From the NCBI GenBank assembly GCA_000004985.1, contig GG738846.1: a DNA stretch of 64,000 bases; one strand, given 5' to 3'. This DNA is from Naegleria gruberi (lineage: Eukaryota). Below, one piece after another: positions 11,530-17,985 of this stretch. The position numbers and the translations under genes are program-made. Under the pieces are notes generated by a model. It was not told the DNA's origin and did not search any database. It was given only the letters and a program-made list of their open reading frames with translations. Every line of letters begins with the position of its first letter. Positions within the stretch are counted from its first letter, which is position 1.

Positions 11530-11600
11530 ATCAATTTAAAATAATAACTATTCGAAATGCATGGCGAATTTAAATGTTTTTTTATGTTTTTTGAAAAAAA

Positions 11601-12562
11601 ATGAAAGAACATGATATTGAACAATTTATTGAATGGTCCCACAACATTGGAGCCTTCAAACATGAAAATATTGACTTGAAATTCATCTCCTCCGAGTGTG
11701 GTATCGGAGGTATTCTAACATCAGACATTCAAGCCTCTGAAGATGATCAAGTGGATTTATTATCTGTTCCTTTGGAAAATTGTTTAAATGTTAGGAATAT
11801 GAATAGGGAATTTAGAGATTTAATATCGGAATTGAAATTAATTGCTGATGGAAATAATGATAAGAATGAAGAACTTGCTTCTCAGTGGAAGGGAACAAAC
11901 ATGTTTGAAAATGGATTAATTGTTTTCTACATGTTTTTAATTTATGAGTTACATGTTGAGAAGGAGAAGAGTACACACTTTCCATATTTGAATTTATTAC
12001 CAAGGGAATTTACTACAGCTCTTTATTTTGATGAAGATGAAATGGCTGCATTGAGATCTACCAATTTGTACAAATCTGTGCAGAGTATTAGACAAAATTT
12101 GAAGCAAATTTACGAAACGAAAGTGGAATATTTAATGAACAAGTATCCACAAAAGTTTGATAGACAAGTGTTTAGTTATGAGAATTTCATGTGGGCTTTT
12201 TCTGCTGTTTGGTCAAGAGTTTTTCCAATTGAATATCCTGCAGAGAATGGAGAAGGTGTGGAAATTGTTCCAACATTATTGCCAACAGTTGACATTTTGA
12301 ATCACAAATTTAATGCCAAGATTACATATTTCACAGGATCTGACAGAAGATTCTACTTGAAAACAAGAGAATCTCTCAAAAGCGGAGACTATGTCTGCAA
12401 CAATTATGGAGCAAAGAGTAATGATTCATTCTTATTGAGTTATGGATTTGTCATTCCAAATAATTCTGAAGACACTCTCTATGTTCAATTTGGTATTTCT
12501 GATGATGGCAATGAAGAATTGGTTCAATTCAAGAAAAAGTATTTGGAAGACAATTCTCTCAA
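11601..12562 (+). CDS. SET-domain lysine methyltransferase, SETD3/SETD6/Rubisco-LSMT-like; exon 1 of 3
   Basis: ATG at 11601. The SET C-terminal signature is ILNHKFNAKITYF ... GDYVCNNYGAKSNDSFLLSYGFVIPNN. The exon ends at 12562 with a GTAAGT donor at 12563-12568. The TAA that closes the raw ORF lies inside that donor. Confidence 0.7.
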
Positions 12563-12603
12563 GTAAGTTTTATAACATCTTTATCTTGATAATATTCCAA
12601 TAG

Positions 12604-13495
12604 TCTTGGATTTTATCTCAAAAAACAACAACTGCCAGAAGACATGCTAGATTCCATTCGTATCTGTATGATGACCGAAGATGATTTTTATCTTGCCAAA
12701 CAATCAACAATCTCTCAACACAGAGAACAATCTAAGGATTCTGTCTACAGATTCAGTGTAAAGAATGAATTCAAAATGCTTCACACACTGAGGTCATTGT
12801 TCATATCAAAGAGACGTCTCTTCCCAACCACTATTGAAGAAGATGAAGAAGAGTTGAGTGAAGAAACCAACTTTAACATGCAAAATATTCTCATTTACAT
12901 AATTGGACAAAAGAAGATTATTGAAAATGCCTTGAAATGCATTGATGAAAAACTCTCTACTTTGCTTGGAACCTATACCAAACTTGTGGACAATAATAAT
13001 CATCAGGAAAATATTCTCCAAACCATGAAGAATATCTTTATTGAAAATAGTGGAAAATTATCTGTGGAAATGAGACCAGAATTGAATTCTTTCCATGCCA
13101 TTTCCAAAGAATCCATCTCAAAAGGTGAAATAGTAATGATTGTCAAATCAGAGGAATTAATAGATGTGGATAATGCTCTTGATTCCCCGTTTGGAGAATT
13201 CTACACTGAGGCAAGAGAGGAGGATCTCAGTGCCAATCTCGATGATGAAATGGCTGTCATGTTTTACATTATGTTTGAAATGTTCTCCTCTCCAAATTCA
13301 CCTCTCAAGTCCAATAATCACAAAAAGTTTTTCAATCTCCTTCTCAAGCATTACAATTTCCAAGAAACTCCATTCCTCTCCGAAAAACTTCAAGATGAGC
13401 TGAGTGGAACCAATACCCTTGATTTGATTCAGAGAACAAGAGATGGACTTTCTGAAGTTTTCGAGGAGATTAAGAGTGCCCTCATACAGTCTGGT
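12604..13495 (+). CDS. SETD3/LSMT-like methyltransferase; exon 2 of 3 (substrate-binding region)
   Basis: A 41-nt intron (12563-12603, GTAAGT ... CCAATAG) joins in phase 2 to the frame of ORF 12644-13525. The exon ends at 13495 before a GTAAGT donor (13496-13501). Confidence 0.6.
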
Positions 13496-13542
13496 GTAAG
13501 TTTTCATTCTCTAATTTTTTACTGAAATTTATATTTTCACAG

Positions 13543-14229
13543 TTGCAAGATGAGGAAAATGTAATGACCTTTGAAAACTTTCTAGTTGCCTATTCAGTAT
13601 TTGATTTGTTCGCTGTTGGATCAGAGACTGTATTACCAATACCAGCAATTTCACAATTAGGCAGCTTTTTGGTTGAGTTTGATGATGGAAATCTTGTGGT
13701 TAAAAGTTTGATTGACATTCCTAAAGATAAGATTATTACCTTCTCTGCCCTTTCACTCACAAAACCAATCGAAGACTTACTCATGTACAACATTTATCCA
13801 ATTGATTATGAATTGGCCTTGCCTAATGTAAAACATGCCATTGGTATTGATTTGGAATCTTTAGAATCTCTCATTACACAACAAAAGCTTGACATTTTGA
13901 ATTTTTTGAACAATTTATCCTTCACTCACTATTTGACAAGAGGTAGAAAGTGTAGCCTTCTTCCAATCCAATTAGGAGTTTTATTTACTACAGATGAGAT
14001 TGCACTTTCAAACCTTCTCAATCAAAAAAAGATTGAAATTAACATGTTTGATTCGTCAGTCATGGAGAATGTGAATCACGTCATTAGTGCAATGGTTGAA
14101 AACTTTGCAAGTGCCTTCTCAGAGAATGAGGAAGCAGTAGAAGAAATCAGAACACTGTCAAGTATAGAACAGAATGCAAAACTCTTCTTTCCTCACTTCT
14201 TTCAGAATAAAAACCTTCAATTTTATTAA
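13543..14229 (+). CDS. SETD3/LSMT-like methyltransferase; exon 3 of 3
   Basis: A 47-nt intron (13496-13542, GTAAGT ... TTTCACAG) joins in phase 0. The ORF-track 'M' at 13543 is a TTG codon, so this is not an independent start. Combined CDS is 2541 nt, about 846 aa. Confidence 0.6.
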   Translation: MQDEENVMTFENFLVAYSVFDLFAVGSETVLPIPAISQLGSFLVEFDDGNLVVKSLIDIPKDKIITFSALSLTKPIEDLLMYNIYPIDYELALPNVKHAIGIDLESLESLITQQKLDILNFLNNLSFTHYLTRGRKCSLLPIQLGVLFTTDEIALSNLLNQKKIEINMFDSSVMENVNHVISAMVENFASAFSENEEAVEEIRTLSSIEQNAKLFFPHFFQNKNLQFY

Positions 14230-16708
14230 ATTCTAATAAGGACAATCCATTCTTTTCATTATTATTGGAAGTGCTTAAATTTTGTAAAACGCACTTGACA
14301 TGCTTCATGGTTGGTCTTTCAGCCCAGTCCTTTTTCAATAAATTCAAAACCAAATCAATAGCAATTGGATTGACTTCCTTCTCCACAAGCTCAGCCCTAA
14401 TGTTATTATAGGCCAATTCATAATTTTTCAAAATTGCATCAGACATGAAATAGGAAGTACTTTCCAATCGAACCTTTGTACGGAATGTCAATAGATTGTA
14501 CAATAAAACTCCAAAAGAAAAACTATCTGTAGCCCTCAAATTCTCTCTAGACATTTCGGCTTTTGATTTCAATTCAGGAGAAATTGTTGGTAATGAACCC
14601 AAATAGAGAGCATGTCTTCTCATTTGAAAGTCTGGACTGTCTCTTGTAATCTTGATTACATCTTGTCTTGTCGATTGCAAGTAACCAAAATCTGCAATCT
14701 TGACACATTTAGAAATGCAAGACGGATCTAAGAGAACATTTTCCACCTTAATATCTCTGTGAACCAAATCTAACTGGTGCAAGTAATTAATTGCATCTGC
14801 AATTTGATAGGCAATCTTGAAAGTATCTGGGAGTGATTCATCACCCTCAACTTCTTCATGATAAAAGATCAAACTAGTCAGTGTATCATAAAAAGGCATA
14901 ACTATATGACAATAGGTTTCTTTGTCTGTCTCACTATTACAAAAACCATCAAGGTATGGAGTGAGATGTTTGTGGGAGAGCGATTTGATTTGGGAAGTGT
15001 GTTGGAAGAACTCGTCAAGCTCTGCATTGGTAATTTTCATGTGTTTGATTGCTACAGTTCGATTATCAGTTTTGGATATGTACTTGTGCAGAATACCTTC
15101 TGCTCCACGCCCAATCTCCTCTACGAGTGTGAAATGTTCTAGAATTTTTTGATTAGTCTCGATATAGGTTTCCTCAATAATTGGAGTTGTATTGGTTGTA
15201 GGTTTCTTCTTTTTTCCAATTTTAATGGTGTTAAATTTGAGTTTACCACCATCTTCCAACTCTATATTATTAATACTATTTACAGTACCAACTCGGTGTA
15301 GAATGGTATAATCTTTACAAGTAAAGATATTTCTAATTGAAGTGTTGCTGAGCTTGAGTGATTCCACAATGTGTGGAGAAATTGGTTGTGGAAAGTTTGT
15401 AGAGATATTACTTCGCCACAGCTGATGGTTATTATTACTGCCCCAAGAATAGATCAATCCACTGATTGTCCTAACCACAGTATGACTATCCCCTGTATCT
15501 ATGGAATGAATCTTCTCCTCTCCAAATAGCTTTTTTTGAAGCTGTACAGGTTCGAATAATTGCTTGTTAATGGAAGGGCTGAAACCTAATTGACCCATGT
15601 GATTTCCTCCAAAAGCATAGAGTTCATTATTGAGGGTAAGAACTATAGAGAAATTGGAGCCTGCGGAAATCTTGCTAATTTGTGATTGAATTCCTTTCAC
15701 TCTATTCAATTGTAAAATGAATTCCTCATGTTTTCCAACTCCTGTTTGGCCAAATGAGTTATGGCCAAACGAATACAATAGTCCTTCAGTAGAGACTGCC
15801 AAAAAATGACCATATCCAACACTAACAGATCTAATAGTAACACTTCCATAATCTCTCTCTGCCTTTTTAATATCTAAACTACCTTCCAAAATTTGAGTTT
15901 CAAAATTTTCAGTGAATGTGTAATAAATCTGACCATCAATAGTCAACCACACTGCTAAACCTCCTTTGTATTGGAAATCTGCTACATTTTCTTTCAATAT
16001 ACTAGCCACATTAGAATTAATTAAATCTTGAATATCTATGGCCTTTCCATCGTTCCACACGTAGAATTCTCCCAATAATTTATCTACAATAAACAATATT
16101 CTTAATTGTGAATTTGTTTCTCTATTTACATTTGAAATGACTTGTTCATTTTCCTCGAATCTATTTGCACGATATGGTGCAGATCGTACAATGTATCTAT
16201 TTAATGAAGTGGAATCTGTCGAAATATCCTCCTCTTCGTCCAATTCTAAAAGTTTTAGCTTTTTCTTCAATTCTGTCCTAATACTTTCTTCCTCATTCAT
16301 GGTCCAAACCATAAAGTCTTCATAAATTTCAAAATCTGAATTCTTTAACAATAGTAATTGATTTGTCTTGCTTCTGACCATTAACAAGTCATCATCGGAT
16401 TGACCTTGAAAACATGATATTTCAAGGTCTTGTGTAAGAAAACTATCTGGTAATGTATTGTCCTCCAATACGAGGATTGAATTGTTTCCACGCCCTGTTA
16501 TCATCAAGGAAGGCCTTTTTACATTATCGTCATCATTAGTACTAGTTGAGAAAGAATGCTGATGAACATTTGATTTGGCCATCGAATAGAAAACCTCTTC
16601 ATGTTGATTACCATGTATCACTAGTACAAATAATTTGAATATCAGCAATATGAGGAGGCAAGCCTTCAATAATATTATCAATGTTGGTGATGAGGTGAAT
16701 GCTTTCAT
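14147..16708 (-). CDS. RCC1-repeat + Ser/Thr protein kinase with N-terminal hydrophobic anchor
   Basis: The first in-frame ATG is at 16708 (the track start at 16738 is TTG). The N-terminus MKAFTSSPTLIILLKACLLILLIFKLFVLVIHG is a signal-anchor. RCC1-like blades are GHNSFGQTG, GGNHMGQLG and GSNNNHQLW. The kinase subdomains are VAIK, HRDIKVENVLL, DFG and SPE. The 3' end overlaps the convergent SET exon 3 by 83 nt. Confidence 0.7.
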   Translation of the reverse strand: MKAFTSSPTLIILLKACLLILLIFKLFVLVIHGNQHEEVFYSMAKSNVHQHSFSTSTNDDDNVKRPSLMITGRGNNSILVLEDNTLPDSFLTQDLEISCFQGQSDDDLLMVRSKTNQLLLLKNSDFEIYEDFMVWTMNEEESIRTELKKKLKLLELDEEEDISTDSTSLNRYIVRSAPYRANRFEENEQVISNVNRETNSQLRILFIVDKLLGEFYVWNDGKAIDIQDLINSNVASILKENVADFQYKGGLAVWLTIDGQIYYTFTENFETQILEGSLDIKKAERDYGSVTIRSVSVGYGHFLAVSTEGLLYSFGHNSFGQTGVGKHEEFILQLNRVKGIQSQISKISAGSNFSIVLTLNNELYAFGGNHMGQLGFSPSINKQLFEPVQLQKKLFGEEKIHSIDTGDSHTVVRTISGLIYSWGSNNNHQLWRSNISTNFPQPISPHIVESLKLSNTSIRNIFTCKDYTILHRVGTVNSINNIELEDGGKLKFNTIKIGKKKKPTTNTTPIIEETYIETNQKILEHFTLVEEIGRGAEGILHKYISKTDNRTVAIKHMKITNAELDEFFQHTSQIKSLSHKHLTPYLDGFCNSETDKETYCHIVMPFYDTLTSLIFYHEEVEGDESLPDTFKIAYQIADAINYLHQLDLVHRDIKVENVLLDPSCISKCVKIADFGYLQSTRQDVIKITRDSPDFQMRRHALYLGSLPTISPELKSKAEMSRENLRATDSFSFGVLLYNLLTFRTKVRLESTSYFMSDAILKNYELAYNNIRAELVEKEVNPIAIDLVLNLLKKDWAERPTMKHVKCVLQNLSTSNNNEKNGLSLLEFNKIEGFYSERSEERRVLHSVLYLTVF

Positions 16709-17214
16709 TCTCCAATTAATCAAAATATTTTCTTTCAAAAAACTTATTAAAAACTTTTCCGTAAGACTTTAAACACACGTAAATCGTTGGTGTTAATATT
16801 ATATTATTGTGTATACTCTTGTGAATTTGTTGCTGATGATGATGATGGTGATGGTGGGTACTACTCTCCTAAATTCAATCACAACTTATTCTTGTTGTGA
16901 ATTAATCATACTTGGTATTTTTTTCTGTTATTTTTTTAATGCATTCTTTTGGTGGTGAATTTGATATTTAATTTTGGAGGGAGATTTGTGAGTGTTTTGG
17001 GTGATTTGAATGATCTTGATCCCCAAAAGTTGAAATGCATTTGGTAAGGTGTCGAGGAATGTGTATGAAAAAGTAGGACGGATGACAATTGAATGAAATA
17101 TTTGAATGTTGTTTCTTTAAGCATTTTCTTGTTTTGATTTGTGACAGTAGTAAACTCAAAATTAATTGATTGATGGTATATTTCCAATTAAAGAGTATTT
17201 TCATTTATTGTATA

Positions 17215-17344
17215 TTAGATAATACCAGTAATCCTAATTGGTTTTTCCTTTCTTAAGGCTGCCACAAGGAAGAAGAAACTTGCAAATAACAAGTGGAATC
17301 CAGCAACTGCTGTTTGAACACAAAAGAATGAATAAACACAACCA
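17215..17344 (-). CDS. Putative terminal exon of the 17441-17985 gene (adds a further TM helix)
   Basis: The 96-nt intron (17345-17440) would join in phase 2 to give ...FCFF GCVYSFFCVQTAVAGFHLLFASFFFLVAALRKEKPIRITGII*. Hand-built model. Confidence 0.3.
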
Positions 17345-17440
17345 CTTTGTTAAATCATTCCATAATCATATTTGTAAGTATTTTGCATAAATAGTTTAAT
17401 AATTTCTCTATTAATTGAAATGGATGAATTAACAACTTAC

Positions 17441-17985
17441 AAGAAACAAAAAACGCATTGAGTTTCATTTCTATACAAGATACTCAAGAATGTACAAACA
17501 TGTTCTGGCCATTGTTTTGGATTCAAGATATCCTCAACAGTGACCTTATCTTGCTTATTAAATTCACTGAAAAAACACCAAACATAAAGAATAAAAGATA
17601 ATAATATACAATAACCACCAGGAATATAGGAGGCCCAAATTGGATCCGATGGTGTCATGACTACAGAAGTAAATCCACAAATAAATAATGTATAGATGGA
17701 TCCGATTTGTAAATTTCTAGCCAGAGGAGCAAACTCTAATTTTGATGTTACTGGATTTTCCTTCTTCGGTGCCTTATATTTTGTTTTAACGAGTGTATCG
17801 TTTTGAGTCTCCCTTACTACTTCATCAGGAACAGACTCGATCAAGGTTTGATTTAATTTTTCTGAAAATCCCTTATAGGATTCCTTTTGTGCTTCATCTT
17901 CAGTGTAATAGATTGGTTGGGACATTGGGTTTTTTTTATTGTTGTGGAAGATTGTACAATGAATGGACCAACAGTTTTTCATCAT
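17441..17985 (-). CDS. Hypothetical small multi-TM protein; exon 1 of 2 (start possibly at the internal Met of MSQPIYY)
   Basis: ORF with ATG at 17985. Two hydrophobic helices. On the minus strand a GTAAGTT donor overlaps the ORF stop (plus 17434-17440). Confidence 0.4.

What the first reader, a model, noticed from the sequence alone, without database searches (positions are those of the whole stretch)
14147..16708. RCC1 beta-propeller fused N-terminal to a protein kinase, with a signal-anchor; CDS 3' end overlaps the convergent SET gene by 83 nt
RCC1-kinase fusions are normally kinase-first (NEK8/9-like). Here an N-terminal hydrophobic anchor, then RCC1 blades, then a C-terminal kinase gives a reversed, receptor-like order. 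The kinase glycine loop is degenerate (GRGAEG) but HRD, DFG and APE-like motifs are intact. Its stop codon (14147) lies inside the last exon of the SETD3-like gene (which ends at 14229). This means overlapping convergent transcripts.
Basis: partly seen in the sequence, partly recalled or inferred. Interest (0 to 1): 0.5.

Follow-up and report, generated by a model that had tools for sequence, protein, structure and literature searches.

The report
Naegleria signal-anchored RCC1-propeller protein kinase
This is a real Naegleria gruberi gene for a protein kinase that follows an RCC1 beta-propeller and a conserved N-terminal membrane-targeting segment missing from the reference annotations, but it is not receptor-like, and its 83-nt overlap with the neighbouring gene is a strain-specific accident of two small frameshifts.

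Summary
The window is Naegleria gruberi. The minus-strand ORF 14147-16708 is the annotated gene XP_002682850.1 ("wall associated kinase", a misnomer) plus 42 extra N-terminal codons.

- **Domains:** Pfam confirms RCC1 repeats (aa ~288-470) followed by Pkinase (aa 527-805).
- **N-terminal anchor:** N. fowleri and a metagenomic relative share the architecture. Each has an in-frame upstream hydrophobic signal or anchor that annotations omit, so the segment is very probably translated.
- **Topology:** No hydrophobic segment lies between propeller and kinase, so both domains sit on the same side of the membrane. "Receptor-like" is not supported.
- **Kinase motifs:** The glycine loop GRGAEG is a canonical GxGxxG, not degenerate. 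The real oddity is an invariant His at the alphaC-Glu position.
- **Propeller:** AlphaFold models about five confident RCC1 blades plus degenerate N-terminal ones.
- **Overlap:** The 83-nt ORF overlap with exon 3 of the SET/LSMT-like gene is arithmetically correct. A 98.6%-identical strain carries two 2-nt indels that frameshift both tails and leave a 22-nt gap. Orthologue tails are short, and other convergent pairs in the window end 23-37 nt apart.

The overlap is therefore a neutral, recent by-product of a compact genome. This is a lineage-specific variant of known domain types and is moderately interesting.

The parts
16610..16708 (-). N-terminal signal/anchor segment (aa 1-33; hydrophobic core aa 9-32 = 16613-16684), starting at the first ATG of the ORF. 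It is absent from the reference protein model.
   Evidence: Kyte-Doolittle 19-residue mean reaches 2.88. AlphaFold places a helix at aa 8-31 with pLDDT 83-89. Equivalent in-frame hydrophobic extensions occur in N. fowleri L002 and metagenomic L003.
16580..16582 (-). Second in-frame ATG (Met43), the annotated start of XP_002682850.1. It is a possible alternative initiation site.
   Evidence: P0001 begins MAKSN. A Met also follows the hydrophobic segment within 5-12 residues in the N. fowleri and L003 orthologues.
16100..16579 (-). Poorly conserved region (aa 44-203) with degenerate blade-like strands and an acidic stretch (LELDEEEDIS).
   Evidence: pLDDT is below 50 in both models. Model 2 places a low-confidence four-strand sheet at aa ~97-131. 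The orthologue alignment shows blade-like motifs such as IIGIQC...HAMIHTKSNRIILL.
15284..16099 (-). RCC1-like beta-propeller, confidently modelled part (aa 204-475). Three canonical RCC1 repeats lie at aa 292-325, 344-376 and 399-431.
   Evidence: Pfam RCC1_2, RCC1 and WD40_RLD hits. pLDDT is 76-98. Foldseek matches UVR8, RCC1 and HERC2 RLDs at E ~1e-17, with 247-291 aligned columns and rmsd ~3-4 A.
15131..15283 (-). Linker between propeller and kinase (aa 476-526). It is hydrophilic, with no transmembrane segment.
   Evidence: Hydropathy scan. pLDDT is below 50.
14294..15130 (-). Eukaryotic protein kinase domain (aa 527-805).
   Evidence: Pfam Pkinase E 2.6e-30. Motif positions. Comparison with strain L001 gives 12 synonymous and 5 non-synonymous codon differences over window 14249-15851 (kinase domain, linker and part of the propeller), indicating purifying selection.
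14999..15001 (-). His570, at the position of the canonical alphaC glutamate.
   Evidence: It aligns with the alphaC Glu of S. aureus PknB, CDPK2, PERK and JAK JH1 in phmmer alignments. It is invariant in the three orthologues.
14150..14293 (-). Non-conserved C-terminal tail (aa 806-853). The last ~28 codons exist only in this strain.
   Evidence: The L001 tail ends ...NNNGKNLDCSY*. The N. fowleri and L003 tails end 5-16 residues after VLDFL/VLDFV.
14147..14229 (.). 83-nt overlap of the two convergent ORFs.
   Evidence: It is absent in strain L001.
14144..14145 (.). 2-nt indel site relative to strain L001 (AA present here). It frameshifts the tail of the SET-gene exon 3.
   Evidence: Pairwise alignment and translations.
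14248..14249 (.). 2-nt indel site relative to strain L001 (AA missing here). It frameshifts the kinase tail and makes the ORF run on to 14147.
13543..14229 (+). Last exon (exon 3) of the convergent SET/Rubisco-LSMT-like gene. Exons 1 and 2 are 11601-12562 and 12604-13495.
   Evidence: The intron at 13496-13542 is canonical, 47 nt and phase 0. Removing the 41-nt intron 12563-12603 gives a full-length Rubis-subs-bind match. The ORF is kept open in L001. No 100%-identical database protein covers it.

Best explanation
This is a Naegleria-lineage protein kinase built as follows: an N-terminal ER-type signal or signal-anchor, a degenerate then canonical RCC1-like beta-propeller, a hydrophilic linker, and a C-terminal divergent eukaryotic protein kinase domain.

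**Shown**
- The domain content and order.
- Conservation of the whole architecture, including the hydrophobic N-terminus, in three orthologues.
- Purifying selection on the coding region compared with strain L001 (window 14249-15851: kinase domain, linker and part of the propeller).
- The absence of any membrane span between propeller and kinase.

**Inferred**
- The first ATG (16708) is used at least part of the time, so the protein is targeted to or tethered at a membrane by its N-terminus.
- Propeller and kinase lie on the same side. The propeller therefore acts in cis as a docking or regulatory platform for the adjacent kinase, as the RCC1 domain does in NEK9. It is not an ectodomain signalling across a membrane.
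- In all three orthologues the N-terminal flank is more positive than the C-terminal flank. The positive-inside rule then predicts N-in/C-out, or a cleaved signal peptide in N. fowleri (...HTIA|M). That would put the bulk of the protein in the lumen or outside the cell.
- My estimates are ~45% exoplasmic, ~30% anchored but facing the cytosol, and ~25% no anchor in vivo.
- The conserved second Met just after the anchor could give a soluble cytosolic isoform by alternative initiation. This is speculative.
- The kinase keeps the VAIK Lys, HRD and D(F/Y)G, so it is probably active, with an unusual invariant His at the alphaC-Glu position.

**The overlap**
The 83-nt CDS overlap with the SET-like gene is a neutral by-product. 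A 2-bp deletion in this strain's unconstrained tail lets the ORF read ~28 codons further into the neighbour's 3' end.
For: - **Identity and domains:**
- **Co-linear orthologues only in Naegleria-like sequences:** P0088/P0229 (N. fowleri, 42% identity over query residues 127-812) and P0113 (metagenome).
- **In-frame hydrophobic N-termini in all three loci:** MKAFTSSPTLIILLKACLLILLIFKLFVLVIHG (window), MLQPHTFRFFKCRITLLVALFLLVSNTVVHTIA (L002), MGRKWCPLLGVFLLVILMFSLLKDN (L003).
- **Chance estimate:** a random 33-codon stretch of this composition is both open and this hydrophobic in only ~7e-4 of trials.
- **Structure and hydropathy:** AlphaFold helix at aa 8-31, pLDDT 83-89. Single hydrophobic peak.
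- **Propeller fold:**
- **Kinase motifs and alphaC His:**
- **Selection:** 12 synonymous to 5 non-synonymous differences over window 14249-15851 against L001.
- **Tails:** the only frame-breaking indels between the strains are the two in the tails. All other indels are 3 nt or lie inside introns. The L001 stop codons are 22 nt apart. Orthologue tails are short.
- **Context:** other convergent ORF pairs in the window end 23 and 37 nt apart.
Against: - Three independent annotations (JGI N. gruberi and two N. fowleri) start at the second ATG and omit the hydrophobic segment.
- No transcript or proteomic data were available to place the transcription start or the start codon.
- No dedicated signal-peptide or topology predictor could be run. 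The topology rests on hydropathy and the charge rule only.
- The N. gruberi hydrophobic core contains two lysines.
- Canonical protein kinases and RCC1 domains are overwhelmingly cytosolic or nuclear. One kinome paper states its authors know of no transmembrane kinase with an external catalytic domain (PMC8519429).
- Loss of the alphaC Glu could mean reduced or no catalysis.
- The blade count is unresolved. Only about five blades superpose on solved RLDs.
- The 2-nt differences between strains could in principle be assembly errors in one of the two sequences.
Confidence: 0.6

Rival explanations
1. It is a soluble cytosolic RCC1-kinase that starts at the annotated second ATG (Met43). On this view the upstream hydrophobic ORF extension is untranslated 5' leader.
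For: All three public gene models start at the downstream Met. RCC1 and ePK domains are normally cytosolic or nuclear (established knowledge). AT/T-rich leaders easily translate into I/L/F-rich peptides: 4.5% of Met-started stop-free 40-aa segments in any frame of the window reach a Kyte-Doolittle mean of 2.2 or more.
Against: The extension is open, ATG-initiated and strongly hydrophobic in three orthologues that share only ~40% protein identity. Untranslated DNA would not keep this. The joint chance is far below 1e-3 per locus. Two out-of-frame ATGs lie between 16708 and 16582 and would interfere with scanning to Met43 unless the transcript starts very close to it.
Confidence: 0.22
2. It is a receptor-like kinase. 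The RCC1 propeller would be an extracellular sensor and the kinase an intracellular effector.
For: There is an N-terminal hydrophobic segment followed by a repeat domain and then a kinase. The database name is 'wall associated kinase'.
Against: No second hydrophobic segment exists. The maximum 19-residue hydropathy after aa 33 is 0.95 or less, and the linker at aa 476-526 is hydrophilic and disordered. The same holds in the orthologue alignment. There are no WAK-type (GUB_WAK/EGF) domains.
Confidence: 0.03
3. The 83-nt convergent CDS overlap is a functional arrangement, for example antisense co-regulation of the kinase and the SET-like methyltransferase.
For: Both ORFs run through the shared 83 nt in this assembly. 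Transcripts must overlap even if 3' UTRs are short.
Against: The overlap is absent from a 98.6%-identical strain, where both tails are frameshifted. The gene pair is not syntenic in N. fowleri. Orthologue tails are short. Tight convergent ends of 23 and 37 nt are common in the window. AATAAA motifs at 14206-14211 (+) and 14222-14227 (-) fit the L001 stop positions better than those of this strain.
Confidence: 0.05

Closest known systems
NEK8 / NEK9 (NIMA-related kinases with an RCC1 domain)
   Same: One polypeptide combines an ePK domain with an RCC1-like propeller. The propeller plausibly acts in cis on the kinase through docking or autoinhibition, as reported for NEK9 (established knowledge; NEK review PMC12564199 listed).
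   Different: The domain order is reversed: propeller first, kinase last. The kinase is not NEK-like, since no NEK is among the 56 PDB sequences with E of 1e-10 or better, and the best hits are a scatter of JAK, PknB, CDPK, PERK and ABL at E 1e-16 to 1e-11. It has an N-terminal hydrophobic signal or anchor and an alphaC His. This is an independent fusion.
RCC1-like domain (RLD) proteins: RCC1, UVR8, HERC2 RLDs, RPGR
   Same: Pfam RCC1 and RCC1_2 repeats score above their cut-offs. The predicted fold superposes on UVR8, RCC1 and HERC2 at E ~1e-17 and rmsd ~3-4 A.
   Different: Only three repeats are canonical in sequence and about five blades superpose. The N-terminal blades are degenerate. The domain is fused to a kinase and preceded by a signal or anchor. 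Nothing indicates Ran-GEF activity or UV-B sensing.
Signal-peptide-bearing protist kinases without a transmembrane domain (Toxoplasma ROP/WNG kinases, Plasmodium FIKK; T. brucei kinases annotated with signal peptides)
   Same: They have an N-terminal secretory-type signal, no downstream membrane span and an ePK-fold domain. The apicomplexan examples come from established knowledge. PMC8519429 mentions three T. brucei kinases annotated with signal peptides but no TMD.
   Different: No sequence relationship to those families was detected or tested. None carries an RCC1 propeller. Secretion of the Naegleria protein is only a prediction.
Plant wall-associated kinases (the name in GenBank)
   Same: Only a generic similarity of the kinase domain.
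   Different: There is no GUB_WAK or EGF ectodomain and no transmembrane helix before the kinase. The name is an automatic mis-transfer.

Membership tests
Eukaryotic protein kinase superfamily (Pfam PF00069) | Pkinase profile match above the gathering score | tested here: met
   106.1 bits against a cut-off of 31.7, aa 527-805
Eukaryotic protein kinase superfamily (Pfam PF00069) | Catalytic motifs: GxGxxG, beta3 Lys (VAIK), HRD, DFG | tested here: met
   GRGAEG 533-538, VAIK 552-555, HRD 650-652, DFG 673-675. They are conserved in the orthologues, with DYG in N. fowleri.
Eukaryotic protein kinase superfamily (Pfam PF00069) | AlphaC glutamate that pairs with the beta3 lysine | tested here: not met
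   His570 aligns with the alphaC Glu of four solved kinases and is invariant in the three orthologues.
Eukaryotic protein kinase superfamily (Pfam PF00069) | Phosphotransfer activity | not testable with these tools
   Needs an in vitro kinase assay.
RCC1-like domain (RLD) superfamily | RCC1 / RCC1_2 repeat profiles above the gathering score | tested here: met
   RCC1_2 90.9 bits (cut-off 22) and RCC1 60.7 bits (cut-off 21.7). The whole-domain model WD40_RLD reaches only 102.9 bits against a cut-off of 150, as a partial match to profile positions 140-346 of 363.
RCC1-like domain (RLD) superfamily | Closed seven-bladed propeller | tested here: inconclusive
   Two AlphaFold models give five confident four-strand blades (aa ~242-442) plus partial sheets at 204-225 and 458-478, and a low-confidence sheet at 97-131. 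247-291 of ~370 residues superpose on solved RLDs.
NEK8/NEK9-type RCC1 kinases | NEK-family kinase domain at the N-terminus with RCC1 repeats C-terminal to it | tested here: not met
   The order is RCC1 (288-470) then kinase (527-805). No NEK appears among PDB hits with E of 1e-10 or better.
Receptor(-like) kinases, including plant WAKs | Single transmembrane helix between ectodomain and kinase | tested here: not met
   The only hydrophobic segment is aa 9-32. The linker at 476-526 is hydrophilic.
Receptor(-like) kinases, including plant WAKs | WAK ectodomain modules (GUB_WAK, EGF-like) | tested here: not met
   No such Pfam hits at E of 0.01 or better.
Secretory-pathway (signal-peptide) kinases | N-terminal ER signal or signal-anchor that is translated and functional | tested here: inconclusive
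   The hydrophobic N-terminus, with a positively charged n-region, is conserved in three orthologues. No SignalP or TMHMM, no transcript data, and the annotations start downstream.
SET / Rubisco-LSMT-like methyltransferases (the neighbouring gene) | SET domain plus Rubis-subs-bind domain | tested here: inconclusive
   Rubis-subs-bind is full length, 46.5 bits against a cut-off of 21.6 after splicing. SET reaches only 16.8 bits against a cut-off of 22.4. Precomputed PF27829 Ctm1 hits the L001 copy.

The most novel reading that the evidence does not exclude
The conserved N-terminal signal, with its positive-inside charge pattern, truly sends the whole RCC1-propeller-plus-kinase into the secretory pathway. 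Naegleria, including the pathogen N. fowleri, would then make a lumenal, surface-exposed or secreted canonical protein kinase with a built-in propeller docking domain and a His-substituted alphaC. A cytosolic isoform might also arise from the conserved second Met.
Probability: 0.3. Interest if true: 0.6.

Novelty: new variant of a known kind. Interest (0 to 1): 0.35.

Why it matters
- **Annotation fixes.** The N. gruberi and N. fowleri reference models appear to be N-terminally truncated and to lack a conserved targeting signal. The name "wall associated kinase" is wrong. The neighbouring SET-like gene seems to lack its last exon in the reference.
- **Biology, if the signal is used.** This would be a small Naegleria-specific family of membrane-tethered or secreted kinases with an RCC1 propeller. 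No characterised example of that combination came up in the searches run here. It would also be a possible surface or secreted factor in N. fowleri.
- **Method.** Comparing two near-identical strains shows that a CDS-CDS overlap in a compact protist genome can arise from 2-bp indels in unconstrained tails and need not be functional.

Tried and rejected
1. The exact-sequence look-up of the 853-aa ORF and of P0001 for contigs found nothing.
2. The word-indexed homologue search with the full protein returned only RCC1-repeat proteins and a few unrelated kinases, and missed the N. fowleri orthologue. Repeating it with a three-orthologue alignment gave nothing new. The orthologues came only from the exhaustive HMMER search.
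3. The metagenome DNA-pattern scan with the orthologue alignment gave four unrelated kinases at 24-30% identity over the kinase domain only. L004 is a kinase-first protein without RCC1.
4. I looked for an unrecognised 3' intron that would remove the overlap. The only plausible GT...AG in the kinase tail (GTGAGG...ACAG, 42 nt, read) is in frame and keeps the same stop. No usable intron exists in the SET tail. An intron as the explanation is therefore rejected.
5. Literature searches for the accession numbers, and for Naegleria with RCC1 and kinase, found no description of this protein.
It was rerun without that row.
7. A mitochondrial presequence was considered for the N-terminus. It is less likely because the hydrophobic cores are 11-23 residues long. 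This is inference only.
Full report
**What is at the coordinates**

The window is AT-rich (about 29-37% G+C). The minus-strand ORF that ends with the stop at 14147-14149 has its first ATG at 16708 and encodes 853 aa. A protein search identifies it as Naegleria gruberi XP_002682850.1 / EFC50106.1 / D2UZ82, named "wall associated kinase". That protein is 811 aa, 100% identical and shares the C-terminus, but it starts at the second in-frame ATG (Met43, 16582).

Pfam results:
- Pkinase at aa 527-805, E 2.6e-30.
- RCC1_2 and RCC1 repeats above their gathering scores.
- A partial RCC1-like-domain match at aa 288-444.

**Relatives**

An exhaustive HMMER search of 1.84 billion representatives found thousands of RCC1-repeat proteins. 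Only two were co-linear relatives:
- P0088/P0229, the N. fowleri protein FDP41_008542 / CAG4709739.1, at 42% identity over query residues 127-812.
- P0113, a metagenome fragment.

I fetched the N. fowleri locus (L002) and the metagenomic contig (L003) and rebuilt both genes:
- N. fowleri is 866 aa from its upstream ATG, with a 64-nt intron at LGGN|DYGQ.
- L003 is 815 aa, with a 35-nt intron at the same place.
- N. gruberi has no intron there.

A metagenome pattern scan found no further members. This is a small family known so far only from Naegleria-like genomes.

**The N-terminal hydrophobic segment**

In the window the only hydrophobic stretch is aa 9-32, with a Kyte-Doolittle 19-residue mean up to 2.88. 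Everything after aa 33 stays at or below 0.95. The reference model omits this segment.

The two other loci have the same feature, in frame and upstream of the annotated or called start:
- N. fowleri: MLQPHTFRFFKCRITLLVALFLLVSNTVVHTIA|MVSTQQ (ATG at L002 5902).
- L003: MGRKWCPLLGVFLLVILMFSLLKDNSVMGSQP (ATG at 1543).

The proteins are only about 40% identical, so non-coding DNA would not keep an open, ATG-initiated, hydrophobic reading frame. In simulated sequence of this composition, a 33-codon stretch is both open and this hydrophobic in about 7e-4 of trials. AlphaFold models aa 8-31 as a helix with pLDDT 83-89.

I conclude the segment is very probably translated, and that three public gene models are N-terminally truncated. 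The counter-evidence is exactly that those three annotations start downstream. I had no transcript data to settle the point.

In each species a Met follows the hydrophobic segment within 5-12 residues. Alternative initiation giving a soluble isoform is a possible but speculative reading.

**Topology**

There is no hydrophobic segment between the propeller and the kinase in any orthologue, and the linker at aa 476-526 is hydrophilic and disordered. The "receptor-like" reading, with an ectodomain, a transmembrane helix and a cytosolic kinase, is therefore not supported. Both domains must lie on the same side of the membrane.

In all three orthologues the flank before the hydrophobic core carries more positive charge than the flank after it:
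- N. gruberi: K2, against HGNQHEE after the core.
- N. fowleri: R8, K11 and R13, against a neutral flank.
- L003: R3 and K4, against KDNS...D.

By the positive-inside rule (established knowledge) this predicts N-in/C-out, or a cleaved signal peptide. N. fowleri has a -3/-1 compatible site, TIA|M. The bulk of the protein would then be lumenal or extracellular. That is unusual for a canonical kinase, and a T. brucei kinome paper states its authors know of no transmembrane kinase with an external catalytic domain (PMC8519429). I treat the side as unresolved and split the probability about 45% exoplasmic, 30% anchored facing the cytosol and 25% no anchor.

**The propeller**

Two AlphaFold runs were made, one of the full protein and one of aa 43-520.
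- Confidence is high (pLDDT 76-98) for aa ~204-475.
- Five four-strand blades are clear at aa ~242-442.
- Partial sheets lie at 204-225 and 458-478.
- In the second model a low-confidence four-strand sheet lies at aa ~97-131.

Foldseek places the model on UVR8, RCC1, HERC2 and RPGR RLDs at E ~1e-17, with 247-291 of ~370 residues aligned at 3-4 A. Three repeats are canonical in sequence: 292-325, 344-376 and 399-431. The orthologue alignment shows degenerate blade motifs further N-terminal, such as IIGIQC..HAMIHTKSNRIILL and LFI(V/I)DKLL..F..W. A seven-bladed propeller is plausible but not demonstrated.

**The kinase**

- The glycine loop is GRGAEG in N. gruberi, GSGSEG in N. fowleri and GKGGEG in L003.
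- The VAIK Lys555, HRDIKVEN, DFG (DYG in N. fowleri) and SPE (APE in the others) are present.
- The real deviation is at the alphaC glutamate. In phmmer alignments to S. aureus PknB, CDPK2, PERK and JAK JH1, the target Glu aligns with His570 (FFQ-H-TSQIK). This His is invariant in the three orthologues.
- The closest solved kinases are weak and scattered, at E 1e-16 to 1e-11: JAK, PknB, CDPK, PERK, MAPK, CaMKII and ABL. No NEK is among them. The fusion is independent of NEK8/9.
- Against the sister strain, the compared stretch of the gene (window 14249-15851: kinase domain, linker and part of the propeller) shows 12 synonymous and 5 non-synonymous codon differences, so it is under purifying selection.

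**The overlap**

The plus-strand ORF 13543-14229 is joined to the upstream ORF by a canonical phase-0 intron, GTAAGT...CAG at 13496-13542, 47 nt. A 41-nt intron at 12563-12603 joins the first two ORFs. Removing it turns a partial Rubis-subs-bind match into a full-length one at E 7e-12.

The neighbour is therefore a three-exon SET/LSMT-like gene of about 846 aa that ends at 14229, and the ORF overlap with the kinase (14147-14229) is 83 nt, as stated. No 100%-identical database protein covers exon 3. The reference annotation therefore probably lacks it.

The only hit to exon 3 was a 96%-identical protein on a 4.3-kb metagenomic contig, L001. L001 is 98.6% identical in DNA to window 11532-15851, so it comes from a sister strain. 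The two sequences differ by 62 aligned positions, counting indel bases:
- The other indels are a 3-nt insertion in frame within exon 1 and insertions totalling 3 nt inside each of the two introns.
- The exceptions are two 2-nt indels, at 14144-45 and at 14248.
- These frameshift the tail of the SET gene and the tail of the kinase, respectively.

In L001 the kinase ends ...STSNNNGKNLDCSY* and the SET gene ends ...EEAVEDQNTVKYRTECKTLLSSLLSE*. The two stop codons are 22 nt apart and there is no overlap.

Supporting observations:
- Orthologue tails are short, at 5-16 residues after VLDFL/VLDFV. The long tail of this strain therefore looks derived, with a 2-bp deletion letting the ORF run about 28 codons further.
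- AATAAA motifs at 14206-14211 (+) and 14222-14227 (-) sit at or just after the L001 stops, but before the stops of this strain.
- N. fowleri has no SET neighbour.
- Elsewhere in the window, convergent ORF pairs end 23 nt apart (40485/40509) and 37 nt apart (55312/55350).

Overlapping convergent transcripts are likely here, but they are the norm for this compact genome. The CDS overlap itself is a recent and probably neutral accident. No intron removes it. The one plausible GT..AG in the kinase tail is 42 nt long, in frame, and keeps the same stop (sequence).

**Verdict**

Domain order, N-terminal anchor and overlap arithmetic are right. "Receptor-like", "degenerate glycine loop" and any functional weight on the overlap are not.
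- The gene is already in databases under a misleading name.
- New here are the conserved signal or anchor missing from the annotations, the alphaC His, the restriction to Naegleria-like genomes, and the strain comparison that explains the overlap.
- I rate it a new variant of a known kind, with moderate interest (0.35). The upside is the possibility, about 0.3, that it is a genuinely exoplasmic or secreted canonical kinase.

Noticed in passing
window 11601-14229 (+): The SET/Rubisco-LSMT-like neighbour appears to be a three-exon gene of about 846 aa with very short introns (41 nt at 12563-12603, 47 nt at 13496-13542). Its last exon has no 100%-identical protein in the database, so the reference annotation probably stops at 13525. 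The C-terminal ~378 aa have no Pfam match and show relaxed constraint against strain L001 (exon 2: 1 synonymous to 6 non-synonymous; exon 3: 3 to 4).
   Followed up: partly
L002 6892-6955; L003 2371-2405; window ~15750: The N. fowleri (64 nt) and L003 (35 nt) orthologues share an intron at the same codon position (LGGN|DYGQ and LGSN|SFGQ). N. gruberi has none there. This is an intron loss in N. gruberi or a gain in the other lineage.
   Followed up: partly
L002 ~8010 (N. fowleri orthologue kinase domain): N. fowleri has DYG instead of DFG. Two public N. fowleri models also differ at the extreme C-terminus (...SFFQAV against ...SFFQSCLRDF), which suggests an unresolved 3' intron or a strain difference.
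   Followed up: no
window 40485/40509 and 55312/55350: Two other convergent ORF pairs have stop codons only 23 and 37 nt apart. Overlapping 3' UTRs of convergent genes therefore seem to be routine in this genome.
   Followed up: no
window 17213-17985 (-): The upstream minus-strand gene (ORF 17437-17985) seems to continue through a GTAAGT...AACAG intron (~17312-17440) to a stop near 17213. That leaves about 500 nt of intergenic DNA before the kinase start.
   Followed up: no
L002 9532-10568 (+): In N. fowleri the gene just downstream of the orthologue is a small (270 aa) RCC1-like protein on the same strand. It may be a local duplicate of the propeller part.
   Followed up: no
one search hit list: The strongest non-orthologous matches to the propeller are giant proteins of 2,000-7,000 aa with up to 35 matched RCC1 stretches. 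The exhaustive library holds no annotation. In the word-indexed search the top RCC1 hits were JGI metagenome proteins labelled alpha-tubulin suppressor-like RCC1 family. These hits dominate the list and hide the true orthologues from word-indexed searches.
   Followed up: no
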